DNA of 64,000 nt from Octopus vulgaris (lineage: Eukaryota), in the NCBI GenBank assembly GCA_951406725.2, contig OX597834.1:15004001-15068000 (forward strand). Reading direction: 5' to 3'. This document shows positions 5,098 through 8,577 of the stretch, piece by piece. The first letter of the stretch is position 1. Each line of letters starts with the position of its first letter. A program made the position numbers.

Positions 5098-7259
5098 ATG
5101 AAAGAAAGAAAGAAAGAAAGAAAGGAAGAAAAGAAGAAAGAGGGAAAGAAAGAAAGAAAGAAAGAAAGAAAGAAGGAAGACCACTGCCGATTTTTTTCCT
5201 TCGCAGTCGTTCAAACTACCTCATACAATTCACCCCTTTTCTTACGCAGCGCACCCTCGTCGTCGTCGTCATCGTCATAATCGTCATCATCATCATCATC
5301 ATCATCATCGTCATCACCTTGTCGTCGTCTTCGCCGTCGTTGCCGGCTCATCATTATCATAACTGCATTGATTCTACCGTTATCTTCGAATCTCATTAGA
5401 AATTAACGCCGTTAGATCTTCAGAGAACTTTTTTTTGCAAGCTTTGGGATATTCTTTTGCTGAGTCGCAAAGTTATTGCTTTTAGATTATAACAGGCATC
5501 CATATTAATTAGAGATTCTATGACACAGGCCGTAATATTGAATAAAATATCTTGTGCAAAATTATTATTTTAAAGCCACAATATTCATTTTTTTTTTTCA
5601 CGAAATGGCATCGTGTGATGAAGAAGAGATCATACCGGGGTGAACGCGAACTGAAATACGTGTAAAGAATGGAAGAGATTGTTTCCTTCATGTTGATTGA
5701 AGAGTGCTTCCACCTTTAGTTCAATGTTCTAAATAGAATTTCGTAGCAAGTAACAGCAAAGCTGCAATCATCGCCGTCTCCATTACACCGAACAGGAGAG
5801 CAACGCTAATAACAATGGAATACAATAACAACGTTGATACCTTCTCAACCATCGACACCAGGTACGCATGTTATAGAAAATATAATACATGTTATTTTTT
5901 TTATTTCTTTATTGCCCTACGAGGGGTCACACATAGAGGGGACAAACAAGGACAGACAAAGGGATTAAGACGATTACATCGACCCCAGTGCGTAACTGCT
6001 GCTTAATTTATCGACTCCGAAAGGATGAAAGGCAAAGTCGATCTCGGCGGAATTTGAACTCAGAACGTAACGGCAGACGAAATACCTATTTCTTTACTAA
6101 CCACAAGGGGCTAAACACAGAGGGGACAAACAAGGACAGACAAAGGGATTAAGACGATTACATCGACCCCAGTGCGTAACTGCTGCTTAATTTATCGTCT
6201 CCGAAAGGATGAAAGGCAAAATCGACCTCGGCGGAATTTGACCTCAGAACGTAACGGCAGGTGAAATACCCATTTCTTTACTACCCACAGGGGGATAAAC
6301 ACAGAGGGGACAAACAAGGACAGACAAACGGATTAAGTCGATTACATCGAACCCAGTGCGCAACTGCTGCTTAATTTATCGACCCCGAAAAGATGTAAGG
6401 GAAAGTCGATCTCGGCGGAATTTGAACCCAGAACCTAACAGCAGACGAAATACAGCTACGCATTTCGCCCGGCGTGCTAACGCTTCTGCCAGCTCGCCGC
6501 CTTCAATACATGGTTATTTCTGCCTTGGATAGTCAGATATAACTGGCGCTCCATCGTTTACGGTGGCGAGGTTTCAAGTGGACCCGCTCAACAAAACAGT
6601 CTGTTCATGAAATTAGCGTGCAAATGGCTGAGCAGTCCACGGAGACGCGTACCTTAATGTAGTTCTGAGGGTGATTCAACCTGACACAGAATGGGACAAG
6701 GCTGGCACCTTGGAATACAGGCACTACTAATTTTTGCCAGCTGAGTGGACTGGAGCAATGTGAAAATAAAGTGTCTTGCTCAAGGACACAACACGCCGCT
6801 GCGAATCGAACTTGCCACCTCACGATCGTGAGCTGTATACCCTAACCACTGCTCCACGCGTCTTCGTCTTAAGTTAGATTTCAGAGTATAAAGACAACTG
6901 CATGAAGTTCTTTGTAGACGATTCCAAATTTCAAATGAAGCAAGAATTTAGTTCTATATTTAAGAGATGAGGAATTATTTACATTATTTATATTATTTAC
7001 ATTATGTACATTCTTTACATTATTTACATTTGACAGATATTTGTCCTCGTCTTGTTTCTTAACACAACGTTTCGGCTGATATACCCTCCAACCTTCAACA
7101 GGTGTCCTGGGGTAATTTCGAACTTGGTTCTCATTCCTAAGGTGTTTTCGATGTCGTCATCATCATCATCATCATCATCTTCTTCATCATCATCATCATC
7201 ATCACCATCACCATCACCATCACTACCATCATCACCACCATTATTTCCTTCACCATCAC

Positions 7260-7304
<45 letters not shown>

Positions 7305-7494
7305 TATTATTATTATTTTCCTTCTTTCTTCAGATTTTCTTTCGTTTCTCGCTGAGAGTTTTCCGTACACCTTTAATGGTCATTCCTCTAAATTTTGTAA
7401 GTAAAAAAAGTTTTAATCTTTGGATTTTCTTAAATATGCTAGGCCATTGGTTTTAATTGATTAATATCAATTTCTACCCTTATTTAATTATATA

Positions 7495-7550
<56 letters not shown>

Positions 7551-8577
7551 AATTGAGATAGGGGTTGTGATATGCATTCCCAAATTACACACGCGAATTC
7601 ACAGGTATTATTATCATTATTATTCAGGTCACTGCCTGCAATCGAACTCGGAATCTTGGAGTTAGTAGCCCGTGCTCTTAACCACTGCGACATATGCCCG
7701 CGGGCATATGGCGCAGTGTTTAAGATGAGGACAAATATCCGTCAAATGTAAATAATGTGAAGCAAGGTTTGTTCACTTCTATTGAAGATACCCTGGACGA
7801 GAAATATACAAATCTAACAACGATGAAACTCAGAGATGAAAGGAGGGATGAACAAAAAGATGTGCCCCACGAGATCTTTGATGGAAAAGGTAGCAGAGCA
7901 ATGATTTATTTGTATTTATCGGCCAAGTGTCGATAAGAATAATCGGTCACAGATAGTCAGATACAGATTTGTCTTGCAAGAATTTGTAGCAAGGCAACTG
8001 CAGAAAGCTCTCTGCAAAGGATGTCTAATTTCCGAAAGAAGCAAGCATTGTCCCCTTCTATTGTAGATGCCCTGGACACGAAATATACGCATGTAACAAT
8101 GGCGAAATATTTCAAACTCAGAGATGAAAGGAAGAATGAACAAAGGATGTGTCCCACGAGGACAATGATGGATATGTCAGCAAGACAATGCCGCATTTGC
8201 GTTTATCGGTGAAGTATCGATAAGGATAATCTGTCACAGATAGCCAGATACAGATCTCTCTTGCAAGAATTTGTAGCGATGCATATACTGTTACACGGCT
8301 GTACGATAGGGTAGGGCTGAAATGTGGTCGCCCTACGTGTCAGGTAAAGAGGAAATCTACAGTATGGTCTGCAAACAAGATACCTTAATTACAGTGATGC
8401 AAGTATGGAATGCCGTGTTGAGAAGATGACCACTGGTCTTCGGTATTAAACATCTAATTTGGTGGAAGAGCAAATTGCCAGAGGGCGGAGAGGCGATCAG
8501 GAATGAGAGTTATTAAAAAGAAAATTCACCAGAAATCGTCGCAGAAATCTTGATCCGAATACACCCGTACACACACG

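What the first reader, a model, noticed from the sequence alone, without database searches (positions are those of the whole stretch)
6959..7758. Candidate tRNA-headed SINE whose tail is a hammerhead ribozyme (possible Penelope-dependent SINE)
Seen on the minus strand: a Pol III-type tRNA head (7699-7630), an AAT-rich linker, intervening simple repeats and another element end, then a hammerhead fold (7106-7061) and a tandem (TAAATAATG)-like tail (7036-6976). An adjacent mini-copy (7702-7758) fuses the first 22 nt of the head directly to the last 35 nt of the tail, arguing that head and tail belong to one element. Established: SINE tails normally derive from LINE 3' ends. Inference: here the partner may be a PLE, giving a Pol III RNA with a self-cleaving 3' module.
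Basis: partly seen in the sequence, partly recalled or inferred. Interest (0 to 1): 0.7.

Follow-up and report, generated by a model that had tools for sequence, protein, structure and literature searches.

The report
tRNA-SINE copy with hammerhead-like tail
An old, rearranged copy of a small tRNA-derived jumping element appears to carry, near its far end, a degenerate hammerhead-ribozyme-like fold of the type found in Penelope retroelements, but one window cannot show that this is a true family or that the fold still cuts RNA.

Summary
On the minus strand there is a tRNA-derived Pol III head (7699-7630) and a minimal type-I hammerhead-like fold (7106-7061), followed by a small hairpin and a 9-mer tandem array (7030-6974). 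On the opposite strand, head-to-head with the head, lies a mini-copy (7700-7757) that fuses head nt 1-26 to 37 nt of the tail. The whole 813-bp block lies between identical 9-bp direct repeats (TGAAGCAAG), a chance event in 40 of 20000 controls. That argues for one insertion event.

The hammerhead is not canonical. Core position 6 is U, not A, and no Rfam hammerhead model matches it. The same U6 core, with position 7 free, recurs in a second family (four copies) that is not tRNA-headed and sits in (TA)n tracts.

Penelope-type mobilisation is suggested by the motif type, its 92-121 nt distance from the 3' end, the inverted pairing, and a 29-nt one-sided extension. It is unproven. The window holds no second full copy and no Penelope ORF, and the head is also followed by CTG(AAT)n, as at a LINE 3' end nearby.

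tRNA-derived, hammerhead-bearing SINEs are already known (Sm-alpha). Verdict: partly supported, moderately interesting.

The parts
7758..7766 (+). Target-site duplication, copy 1 (TGAAGCAAG). It abuts the outer end of the mini-copy.
   Evidence: Direct repeat D7, 9 of 9 identical. In the null, 40 of 20000 random 100-nt stretches contained a 9-mer from this junction.
7700..7757 (+). Inverted mini-copy: head nt 1-26 fused through AAGA microhomology to the tail segment (hairpin plus 1.5 repeat units).
   Evidence: BLAST and pairwise alignment: 24 of 26 nt to the head and 35 of 37 nt to the tail over 7053-7017; inverted repeat I1.
7630..7699 (-). tRNA-derived Pol III head (box A 7692-7682, box B 7648-7638).
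   Evidence: ARAGORN calls it only at relaxed settings. Default ARAGORN and Rfam are negative.
7607..7629 (-). CTG followed by an (AAT)n-type microsatellite. It is either an internal A-rich linker or the true tail of a short head-only SINE.
   Evidence: The same CTG(AAT)n ends two LINE 3' UTRs at about 11575 and 12304.
7550..7606 (-). Unique segment, possibly SINE body. It has no other copy in the window.
   Evidence: only microsatellite hits.
7368..7549 (-). (TA)30 plus the unrelated repeat 'F3'. Probably a later insertion. It carries a T7 run on the sense strand that would stop Pol III.
7157..7367 (-). A 48-nt unique stretch followed by an (AAT)n/(ATG)n microsatellite.
7107..7156 (-). Unique segment just upstream of the hammerhead-like motif. 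It has no other copy in the window.
7061..7106 (-). Minimal type-I hammerhead-like motif: helix I 7106-7102/7065-7061; core C7101 U G U(6) U G A7095; bulge A7094; helix II 7093-7088/7079-7074; GAAA 7073-7070; CG 7069-7068; U7067; U17 at 7066. The predicted cut lies between 7066 and 7065.
   Evidence: A covariance model built from the other family scores it 15.4 bits, E about 0.19, rank 6 in the window. No Rfam hammerhead hit.
7031..7060 (-). A/C-rich spacer and a small hairpin (GACA-AATATC-TGTC, 7045-7032).
   Evidence: The hairpin is the minimum-free-energy fold but is no better than shuffles (z = -0.22).
6974..7030 (-). Tandem 9-mer array (TAAATAATG-like), 6.3 copies.
6945..6973 (-). 29-nt extension between the array and the duplication, present at this end only. 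It contains TCCTCATCT, the reverse complement of the mini-copy junction AGATGAGGA.
   Evidence: D8.
6936..6944 (+). Target-site duplication, copy 2 (TGAAGCAAG).

Best explanation
Positions 6945-7757 are most likely one old retroposition event of a non-autonomous, Pol III-type element, bounded by a 9-bp target-site duplication.

SHOWN FROM THE SEQUENCE: The element starts with a tRNA-derived head. Its 3' module contains a degenerate minimal hammerhead-like motif, then a short hairpin, then a 9-mer tandem array. Two products lie head-to-head and meet exactly at head nt 1: a long copy on the minus strand and, on the plus strand, an internally deleted mini-copy joined at AAGA. The interior was probably later enlarged by microsatellite growth and by a (TA)n-associated repeat.

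INFERRED: The 3' module descends from the pLTR/ORF-start region of a Penelope-like element (PLE). PLE reverse transcriptase/endonuclease nicks and extends both target strands, which would produce the inverted pair and the one-sided 29-nt extension.

INFERRED: The hammerhead-like fold is a passenger, or a protein-binding part of that recognition module, rather than a device that trims the SINE RNA. It carries U at core position 6, and its predicted cut would separate the head from the tail.
For: 1. One unit. TGAAGCAAG occurs at 6936-6944 and at 7758-7766, the latter immediately outside the mini-copy. Chance: 40 of 20000. The mini-copy combines head (24 of 26 nt) and tail (35 of 37 nt) at a 4-nt microhomology, and the palindrome centre coincides with head nt 1, as expected if both products ran to the 5' end of a Pol III RNA.

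2. The head is a Pol III head. Box A/B spacing is 44 nt; there are 4 such pairs in the window against a mean of 0.075 in 40 shuffles.

3. The motif is real. There are 3 minimal-type descriptor hits against a mean of 0.017 in 60 shuffles. It also has three features that Cervera & de la Pena list as emerging on their own in PLE min-hammerheads (Discussion read). [quoted passage not shown]

4. The U6 core is shared. CUGU-N-GAA...GAAAYGU occurs at A (7101), B (8809), C (44011) and D (60522) and, decayed, at E (15140-15103). Position 7 is U, C, U, G and A in turn, while position 6 is always U. Position 7 is the only free core position in hammerheads.

5. PLE-like geometry. From the predicted cut it is 92 nt to the end of the array and 121 nt to the duplication. 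In the second family the distance is 86-100 nt. In the anole PLE the cut is at +26 and reverse transcription starts at +111-118, which is 85-92 nt (main text read).

6. PLE-like insertion form. An inverted copy adjacent to the 5' end, and a 30-40 bp 'tail' extension at one end only, are described as PLE hallmarks (passages). The anole PLE protein cleaves and extends both strands.

7. The 3' module (7160-6940) has no BLAST match to either of the 2 LINE 3' UTRs in the window (UTRs).

8. Outside the F3 block the sense strand has no TTTT run over 575 nt. This is seen in 1440 of 20000 random stretches, so the support is weak.
Against: - The window holds only one long copy. The head has no further match, and the segment 7106-7061 has none at all. 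A family with this architecture is therefore not shown.
- The mini-copy lacks the hammerhead-like motif.
- The head is followed directly by CTG(AAT)n, as in the two LINE 3' ends at 11.5 and 12.3 kb. A short head-plus-(AAT)n SINE is a real alternative.
- About 520 bp lie between the head and the motif, including a T7 run inside F3.
- The core has U6. The natural A6C variant cleaves at less than 0.1 per min, and changes at this position are known to give low activity.
- No Rfam hammerhead model matches locus A or locus C, even at E<=10.
- The covariance model built from the other family scores A at only E about 0.19.
- RNAfold shows that U6 lets UGUU pair with AACG in an alternative rod that is not the active fold.
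- No RT or GIY-YIG domain was found in the 141 ORFs scanned. These were 141 of the 182 ORFs that passed a complexity filter, out of 583 ORFs of at least 50 aa.
- A hairpin followed by short tandem repeats is, from my recollection of the eel UnaL2/UnaSINE1 pair, typical of conventional L2/CR1-type LINE tails.
- Unlike the second family, this insertion is not in a (TA)n tract.
- In the second family, the hammerhead block is clearly better conserved than the rest in only 2 of 6 copy pairs.
Confidence: 0.45

Rival explanations
1. Two unrelated insertions lie side by side: (a) a short 'simple' SINE made of the tRNA head plus CTG(AAT)n (7699-7607), mobilised by the (AAT)n-tailed LINE seen at 11-12 kb, and (b) a separate 5'-truncated Penelope-derived fragment (hammerhead-like motif plus tail, about 7160-6945). 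On this view the mini-copy is a patch made by snap-back and template-switch DNA synthesis during break repair, copying two nearby stretches of the same strand.
For: - CTG(AAT)n follows the head and also ends both LINE 3' UTRs.
- The exact 19-nt (AAT)n variant of the linker recurs at 6 other sites in the window.
- The palindrome has no spacer, and the 4-nt microhomology junction is what snap-back synthesis followed by a template switch would leave. That mechanism is recalled, not tested here.
- The second family (B-E) shows that hammerhead-like fragments without any tRNA head are common in this window.
Against: - The 9-bp direct repeat encloses the mini-copy, head and tail together. It is rare by chance, 40 of 20000.
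- No comparable direct repeat flanks 7758 and 7606 (one search lists only D6-D8 outside the microsatellites).
- The break would have to coincide exactly with head nt 1.
Confidence: 0.25
2. This is a genuine composite tRNA-SINE, but its partner is a conventional stringent LINE (L2/CR1-like) that recognises the hairpin plus 9-mer repeats. The hammerhead-like motif is only a captured piece of body sequence of Penelope origin, and the inverted partner arose by twin priming.
For: - A hairpin at 7045-7032 is followed by a 6.3-copy 9-mer array.
- SINE tails normally derive from LINE 3' ends (established).
- The mini-copy keeps exactly the hairpin and repeats and drops the hammerhead.
- LINE-derived pieces are known to contribute to SINE middle bodies as well as 3' tails (PMC5786205; title and abstract seen in the listing only).
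Against: - The only LINE 3' UTRs in the window do not match the module.
- Both partners reach head nt 1, which classical twin priming does not predict, since it gives a 5'-truncated inverted part (recalled).
- The 29-nt one-sided extension and the 92-121 nt spacing from motif to end match PLE data.
- The hairpin is no more stable than shuffles (z = -0.22).
Confidence: 0.15
3. This is a one-off chimeric retrocopy. A Pol III transcript from a SINE head read through into flanking DNA that happened to contain a Penelope-derived fragment, and it was retroposed once. No SINE family with this architecture exists.
For: - There is a single long copy in 64 kb.
- The interior is long and heterogeneous.
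- There is no TTTT on the sense strand outside F3.
Against: - It cannot be told apart from the best explanation within one window.
- The mini-copy only shows that head and tail shared a template in this one event.
Confidence: 0.1
4. The hammerhead resemblance is a chance match in AT-rich, repeat-rich DNA.
For: - No Rfam hammerhead match.
- One core position deviates.
- The fold energy is unexceptional (z = -1.34).
Against: - 3 hits against 0.017 expected; 0 of 60 shuffles reached 3.
- The same deviant core recurs in an unrelated family, with position 7 free.
- Three additional PLE-type features are present.
Confidence: 0.03

Closest known systems
Sm-alpha / Sj-alpha SINE-like retroposons of Schistosoma
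   Same: tRNA-derived: 2,342 tRNA-Gln-like predictions were classed as Sm-alpha-like SINEs. Apparently transcribed by Pol III, non-autonomous, and each unit carries a type-I hammerhead. This is the direct precedent for 'a tRNA-headed SINE with a hammerhead'.
   Different: Sm-alpha has a canonical, catalytically active hammerhead. It often occurs in tandem, so that the ribozyme releases units from multimeric transcripts. Here the motif is the minimal type with no helix III, has U6, occurs as a single unit, and lies 92-121 nt from the 3' end. Sequence relatedness was not tested because no Sm-alpha sequence was available to me. The primary papers (PMC108972; Laha 2000) are not held, so I rely on passages in later papers.
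Minimal hammerheads in the pLTRs of Penelope-like elements (Cervera & de la Pena 2014; Lunse et al. 2017)
   Same: Type I. [quoted passage not shown] Mostly dispersed as single motifs from truncated elements.
   Different: Those motifs have A6; the only core variant reported in the sections I read is U3-A8. Here U6 is fixed in 5 of 5 motifs. No PLE ORF lies next to them. Lunse et al. could not be read.
Animal non-LTR retrozymes (PLE-derived non-autonomous elements)
   Same: Short non-coding elements carrying a type-I hammerhead, proposed to hijack PLE enzymes and likened to SINEs.
   Different: Retrozymes are defined by tandem units and circular RNA intermediates, have no Pol III tRNA head, and mostly carry canonical hammerheads. 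Locus A is a single tRNA-headed unit. The second family in the window (B-E) consists of dispersed monomers of about 190 nt in (TA)n and is closer to a 'solo retrozyme' or pLTR fragment.
Integration products of PLEs (Craig et al. 2021; Frangieh et al. 2024)
   Same: An inverted copy adjoining the 5' end, a 30-40 bp extension at one end, reverse transcription starting internally 85-92 nt downstream of the hammerhead cut, and cleavage and extension of both target strands.
   Different: Those descriptions concern autonomous elements or their own truncated copies. Here the inverted partner is an internally deleted copy that retains the 5' end. The extension is 29 nt. The target is not a microsatellite.
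Stringent LINE/SINE pairs with a hairpin and short 3' repeats (e.g. eel UnaL2/UnaSINE1; recalled, not checked)
   Same: A small hairpin followed by short tandem repeats at the extreme 3' end, retained in the mini-copy.
   Different: No matching LINE tail in the window. There is a hammerhead-like motif immediately upstream, and both partners of the head-to-head pair are full at the 5' end.

Membership tests
tRNA-derived SINE (SINE2/tRNA) | 5' head with internal Pol III box A and box B at tRNA-like spacing | tested here: met
   Box A has 1 mismatch and box B 2 mismatches, 44 nt apart. There are 4 such pairs in the window against a mean of 0.075 in 40 shuffles.
tRNA-derived SINE (SINE2/tRNA) | Head recognisable as a tRNA or tRNA pseudogene by tRNA finders | tested here: inconclusive
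   ARAGORN at default: 0. Rfam at E<=10: no tRNA hit. ARAGORN -ps80 calls c[7627,7691] among 21 calls, many of them in simple repeats.
tRNA-derived SINE (SINE2/tRNA) | Insertion flanked by a target-site duplication | tested here: met
   9 of 9 nt identical: TGAAGCAAG at 6936-6944 and 7758-7766. Null: 40 of 20000.
tRNA-derived SINE (SINE2/tRNA) | Many dispersed copies sharing the head-body-tail order | not testable with these tools
   The window holds one long copy and one mini-copy. No eukaryotic genome collection was available.
tRNA-derived SINE (SINE2/tRNA) | 3' tail shared with an autonomous partner element | not testable with these tools
   No RT or GIY-YIG ORF among the 141 ORFs scanned. 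The two LINE 3' UTRs present do not match.
Hammerhead ribozyme (type I, minimal PLE type) | Helices I and II around a three-way junction, with helix III reduced to a palindromic 15.2-16.2 | tested here: met
   Helix I of 5 bp, helix II of 6 bp, ACGU palindrome.
Hammerhead ribozyme (type I, minimal PLE type) | Conserved core CUGANGA ... GAAA ... UH | tested here: not met
   Position 6 is U (CUGUUGA). All other specified core positions match. The same U6 is present in 5 of 5 motifs in the window.
Hammerhead ribozyme (type I, minimal PLE type) | [quoted passage not shown] | tested here: met
   A7094 is the bulge; G7093 pairs with C7074. The traits are listed.
Hammerhead ribozyme (type I, minimal PLE type) | Match to a curated hammerhead covariance model | tested here: not met
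   Rfam at gathering thresholds: 0 hits in 64 kb. At E<=10 there is no hammerhead among 24 matches at 6700-8000 or among 8 matches at 43940-44060.
Hammerhead ribozyme (type I, minimal PLE type) | Self-cleavage at H17 | not testable with these tools
   Needs a cleavage assay. Low activity is expected from the data on changes at position 6.
PLE-derived non-autonomous element / non-LTR retrozyme | Tandem units, each with a hammerhead | tested here: not met
   There is a single motif at locus A. TRF finds no long-period tandem in 6900-7800.
PLE-derived non-autonomous element / non-LTR retrozyme | Sequence similarity to the pLTR/ORF start of an autonomous PLE in the same genome | not testable with these tools
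   No PLE ORF in the window and no genome collection.
PLE-derived non-autonomous element / non-LTR retrozyme | PLE-type insertion form: inverted adjacent copy, one-sided 30-40 bp extension, 3' end about 85-120 nt after the hammerhead cut | tested here: inconclusive
   An inverted mini-copy is present, the extension is 29 nt, and the spacings are 92 and 121 nt (compared). This is a single locus, so it is suggestive only.
Sm-alpha-like SINE | tRNA-like head and an active canonical hammerhead in the same repeat unit | tested here: inconclusive
   The head and motif lie inside one duplication-bounded block but are separated by about 520 bp of mixed sequence. The motif is non-canonical.

The most novel reading that the evidence does not exclude
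This genome carries a lineage-specific hammerhead core variant, U6 in place of the invariant A6, kept in at least two unrelated retroelement families while position 7 drifts freely. One of these families is a Pol III tRNA-SINE that has captured the Penelope recognition module and is integrated by Penelope enzymes as two cDNAs primed from both target strands and joined head-to-head. That would be the first SINE-Penelope partnership, and it would show that the PLE 'hammerhead' can persist as a structural or protein-assisted element without the canonical catalytic core.
Probability: 0.2. Interest if true: 0.7.

Novelty: new variant of a known kind. Interest (0 to 1): 0.45.

Why it matters
SINEs are classified by the LINE clade that moves them. 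My four literature searches found no tRNA-headed SINE with a Penelope-type tail, although that library misses most subscription journals. If confirmed genome-wide, this locus would add Penelope-like elements to the list of SINE partners. It would give a natural substrate for studying how PLE reverse transcriptase chooses its template, and it would link tRNA-SINEs, retrozymes and PLE pLTRs.

Separately, a hammerhead-like core with U6 fixed and N7 free in several families is a testable case. Either a 'forbidden' core change is tolerated, or a ribozyme fold has been kept for a non-catalytic role.

If the rivals hold, the locus is an ordinary pile-up of retroposon fragments in microsatellite-rich DNA.

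Tried and rejected
- Default tRNA and Rfam scans gave no tRNA and no hammerhead. I kept this as evidence against strict membership, not against the resemblance.
- Self-BLAST for more copies of the head, body, motif and tail found none beyond the mini-copy, so co-occurrence could not be counted.
- MAFFT alignment of the five motifs mis-gapped helix II of locus A and was not used for pair counts. Instead I built a covariance model from B, C and D only and searched the window. It recovered E strongly, locus A weakly (E about 0.19), and a further weak candidate at 40904-40857. The helix II of that candidate does not fit, so I set it aside.
- Pfam scan of 141 ORFs for RT or GIY-YIG: nothing. The 7 families reported each hit 1 member (best E 1.1e-4); for the one member whose table was shown, the scores were below the curated cut-offs.
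- Conservation of the hammerhead block against the rest of family B-E: significant in only 2 of 6 pairs. It is not used as proof of selection.
- The T-run test gave p of about 0.07, which is weak.
- One protein search showed that the ORF ends at 11-12 kb belong to a widespread RVT_1/zf-RVT LINE. It did not name the organism, and I did not pursue the taxon further.
- A literature search for printed copies of two sequence strings gave 0 papers.
- Alternative duplications for sub-units (7758 with 7606; D6 ATATACAAAT at 7544 and 7804) were judged chance or low-complexity matches.
- An alternative junction for the mini-copy, at the 9-10 nt similarity between head GTGGTTAAGA and the GTGTTAAGA just after the predicted cut, was considered. 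It needs an extra 7-8 nt deletion and was not preferred.
- Not checked: the genome-contig collection was not searched because it holds only bacteria and archaea. No supplementary files were opened; the supplementary alignments of Cervera & de la Pena 2014 might show whether U6 variants were seen before.

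
Full report
WHAT IS IN THE SEQUENCE

Read on the minus strand, the region contains, in order:
- a 70-nt tRNA-like head (7699-7630);
- CTG plus an (AAT)n-type microsatellite (7629-7607);
- 57 nt of unique sequence;
- (TA)30;
- a repeat ('F3', 7480-7368) whose only other copy lies at 9002-9113 on the other strand (93%);
- 48 nt of unique sequence;
- a long (AAT)n/(ATG)n tract (7157-7319);
- 50 nt of unique sequence;
- the hammerhead-like motif (7106-7061);
- an A/C-rich spacer with a 4-bp hairpin (7045-7032);
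- a 9-mer tandem array (6974-7030, 6.3 copies, 87% matches).

On the plus strand, starting two bases from head nt 1, lies the mini-copy (7700-7757). Its first 26 nt match the head at 24 of 26 positions. Its last 37 nt match 7053-7017 at 35 of 37. The two parts meet at AAGA, which is present at both parental sites. The head and the mini-copy therefore form a palindrome centred on the 5' end of the head.

THE HEAD

Box A (1 mismatch) and box B (2 mismatches) are 44 nt apart, the same spacing as in two clear SINE heads in the window, at 6856-6802 (-) and 16312-16366 (+). There are four such pairs in the window, against a mean of 0.075 (max 1) in 40 dinucleotide shuffles.

The cloverleaf has decayed. 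ARAGORN at default settings finds nothing, Rfam lists no tRNA match even at E<=10, and a relaxed ARAGORN run calls it only among 21 mostly spurious predictions. 'tRNA-derived Pol III head' is a fair description. 'tRNA' is not.

THE HAMMERHEAD-LIKE MOTIF

The RNA reads GACAC-CUGUUGA-A-GGUUGG-(8-nt loop)-UCAGCC-GAAA-CG-U-U/GUGUU. Compared with the minimal type-I hammerheads that Cervera & de la Pena found in Penelope-like elements, it has:
- the short helix I;
- the G10.1-C11.1 pair;
- no helix III;
- the palindromic 15.2-16.2, which would let two copies pair.

My descriptor (helices of at least 4 bp, at most 1 core mismatch, 2-nt helix III) finds three such motifs in the window. The mean in 60 shuffles is 0.017, and no shuffle gave three.

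The motif is not a canonical hammerhead. Core position 6 is U, not A. No Rfam hammerhead family matches locus A or the best-preserved related motif, even at E<=10. RNAfold shows that U6 allows UGUU to pair with AACG in a rod-like alternative fold. Perreault et al. measured less than 0.1 per min for a natural A6C variant and note that changes at this position give low activity.

THE SAME ODD CORE ELSEWHERE

The other motifs belong to a roughly 190-nt repeat family with four copies:
- B, about 8885-8682 (-);
- C, 44030-43898 (-);
- D, 60465 to about 60644 (+);
- E, 15192-15025 (-).

Microsatellite, mostly (TA)n, lies on both sides of these copies, and none has a tRNA head. Their motif reads CUGU-N-GAA GAGC GUAG GCUC GAAACGU A, with N = C, U, G and A in the four copies and U in locus A. 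Position 6 is U in all five. Position 7 is the one free position of the hammerhead core, so the register is right and U6 is a shared, probably inherited, feature rather than a random hit in one decayed copy.

A covariance model built from B, C and D finds E at E = 2.7e-9. Outside that family, locus A is the second-best hit (15.4 bits, E about 0.19, rough calibration). There is no canonical motif in the window: CUGANGA...GAAAYGU occurs 0 times.

Evidence that the block is selectively conserved is mixed. It is clearly better conserved than the rest of the element in only 2 of 6 copy pairs.

ONE ELEMENT OR NEIGHBOURS?

The strongest new observation is a perfect 9-bp direct repeat, TGAAGCAAG. One copy lies at 7758-7766, immediately outside the mini-copy. 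The other lies at 6936-6944, 29 nt beyond the tandem array. Only 40 of 20000 random 100-nt stretches of the window contain any 9-mer from that junction. Read as a target-site duplication, it encloses the mini-copy, head, interior, motif and tail as a single 813-bp insertion.

The support is limited:
- The mini-copy omits the motif.
- The window contains no second long copy.
- The interior holds at least one foreign repeat with a T7 run.
- The head is followed by CTG(AAT)n, which is how two LINE 3' UTRs in the window end. These lie at about 11575 and 12304, and relatives of their ORFs carry RVT_1 and zf-RVT domains.

A short head-plus-(AAT)n SINE lying next to an unrelated Penelope-type fragment, with the mini-copy made by snap-back repair synthesis, therefore remains a serious rival.

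WHICH ENZYME?

Four features point to a Penelope-like partner.
1. The motif type points that way.
2. The geometry fits. From the predicted cut (7066/7065) it is 92 nt to the end of the array and 121 nt to the duplication. In family B-E the distance is 86-100 nt. In the anole element studied in vitro the cut is at +26 and reverse transcription starts at +111-118, which is 85-92 nt downstream.
3. An inverted copy abutting the 5' end is a described PLE hallmark, and the PLE protein cleaves and extends both target strands. That would naturally give two cDNAs meeting head-to-head.
4. A 30-40 bp extension at one end only is also a PLE signature. Here 29 nt lie between the array and the duplication at one end only, and they contain a 9-nt inverted echo of the mini-copy junction (D8).

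Against this:
- No RT or GIY-YIG domain was found in the 141 ORFs scanned.
- The target is not a microsatellite.
- A hairpin plus short repeats is also what stringent L2/CR1-type LINE tails look like (recalled).
- The module has no match to the two LINE 3' UTRs present. That removes only the LINE visible in this window.

HOW IT MOST LIKELY WORKS

Shown:
- the anatomy;
- the non-chance nature of the head and the motif;
- the duplication;
- the composite inverted partner.

Inferred:
- Pol III starts at head nt 1 and transcribes through the body into a 3' module copied from a PLE pLTR/ORF start.
- PLE protein binds that module, nicks both target strands and starts reverse transcription inside the tail.
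- Two cDNAs run to the RNA 5' end, one of them skipping from the tail to the head at AAGA, and are joined head-to-head.

The hammerhead-like fold is probably a passenger or a protein-binding structure. In the anole system the ribozyme needs the protein to cut and is dispensable for insertion in vitro. In this locus a cut would sever the head from the tail, and U6 should weaken catalysis.

COMPARISON WITH WHAT IS KNOWN, AND NOVELTY

A tRNA-derived, apparently Pol III-transcribed SINE-like element with a hammerhead already exists: Sm-alpha and Sj-alpha of schistosomes. Dispersed minimal hammerheads from truncated PLEs are abundant in animals. Non-LTR retrozymes have recently been argued to be PLE-dependent and likened to SINEs.

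Three things would be new if confirmed:
- a tRNA head joined to a minimal PLE-type module;
- PLE-style integration of a SINE;
- a U6 core fixed across families.

Searches of the held library found no description of a Penelope-dependent tRNA-SINE. That library lacks most subscription journals. Lunse et al. 2017 and Ferbeyre et al. 1998 could not be read, and no supplements were opened.

I rate the finding a new variant of a known kind. Confidence in the composite-SINE reading is 0.45 and interest is 0.45.

LIMITS

Everything rests on one 64-kb window. The organism was not determined; the closest protein relatives are unnamed, and the named ones come from cnidarians, echinoderms, fish, a tunicate and shrimp.

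Noticed in passing
window 8885-8682 (-), 44030-43898 (-), 60465-60644 (+), 15192-15025 (-): A repeat family of about 190 nt (four copies, 64-89% pairwise identity outside the motif block in the alignment; 74-79% in the BLAST alignments) with microsatellite, mostly (TA)n, on both sides. It has no tRNA head. Each copy carries the same minimal hammerhead-like motif with U at core position 6 and a different base at position 7, lying 86-100 nt from the 3' end. It looks like a Penelope-derived solo pLTR or retrozyme-like monomer.
   Followed up: partly
window 40904-40857 (-), element about 40990-40700: A third, weaker hammerhead-like candidate (CUAUCGAA ... GAAACGU; covariance-model E about 0.07) lies inside a unit of about 290 nt between TA-rich tracts, with an ATG 14 nt after the motif. 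Helix II does not fit well, so it may be decayed or spurious.
   Followed up: partly
window 7480-7368 (-) and 9002-9113 (+): Repeat 'F3' (93% identical over 113 nt) abuts a (TA)n tract at the same end in both copies. At locus A, a roughly 16-nt inverted echo of its end lies across the (TA)n (7476-7565).
   Followed up: no
window 11169-11474 (+) and 11980-12209 (+): Two copies of the C-terminal end of a LINE ORF. Relatives of about 1200 aa carry RVT_1, and a few carry zf-RVT. Each copy is followed by a 3' UTR of about 100 nt ending in CTG(AAT)n, and the second is preceded by an (AAT)n tract, so the two are stacked tail-to-head about 730 nt apart.
   Followed up: partly
window 6864-6600 (-), 16306-16470 (+), 6500-6100 (-), 50030-49715 (-): Several other tRNA-derived SINEs. 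One lies directly downstream of the finding. There is a related partial copy at 50030-49715 that ends in (ATT)n. At 6500-6100 two tandem units share a GGTTCAAATTCCGCCGAG-type box B region.
   Followed up: no
whole window: Microsatellite density is extreme: (TA)n, (CA)n, (AAT)n, (ATG)n, (TATC)n-like and others. Nearly all of the 73 ORFs of at least 120 aa are translations of simple repeats, and no Pfam domain reached its cut-off in the 141 ORFs scanned.
   Followed up: partly
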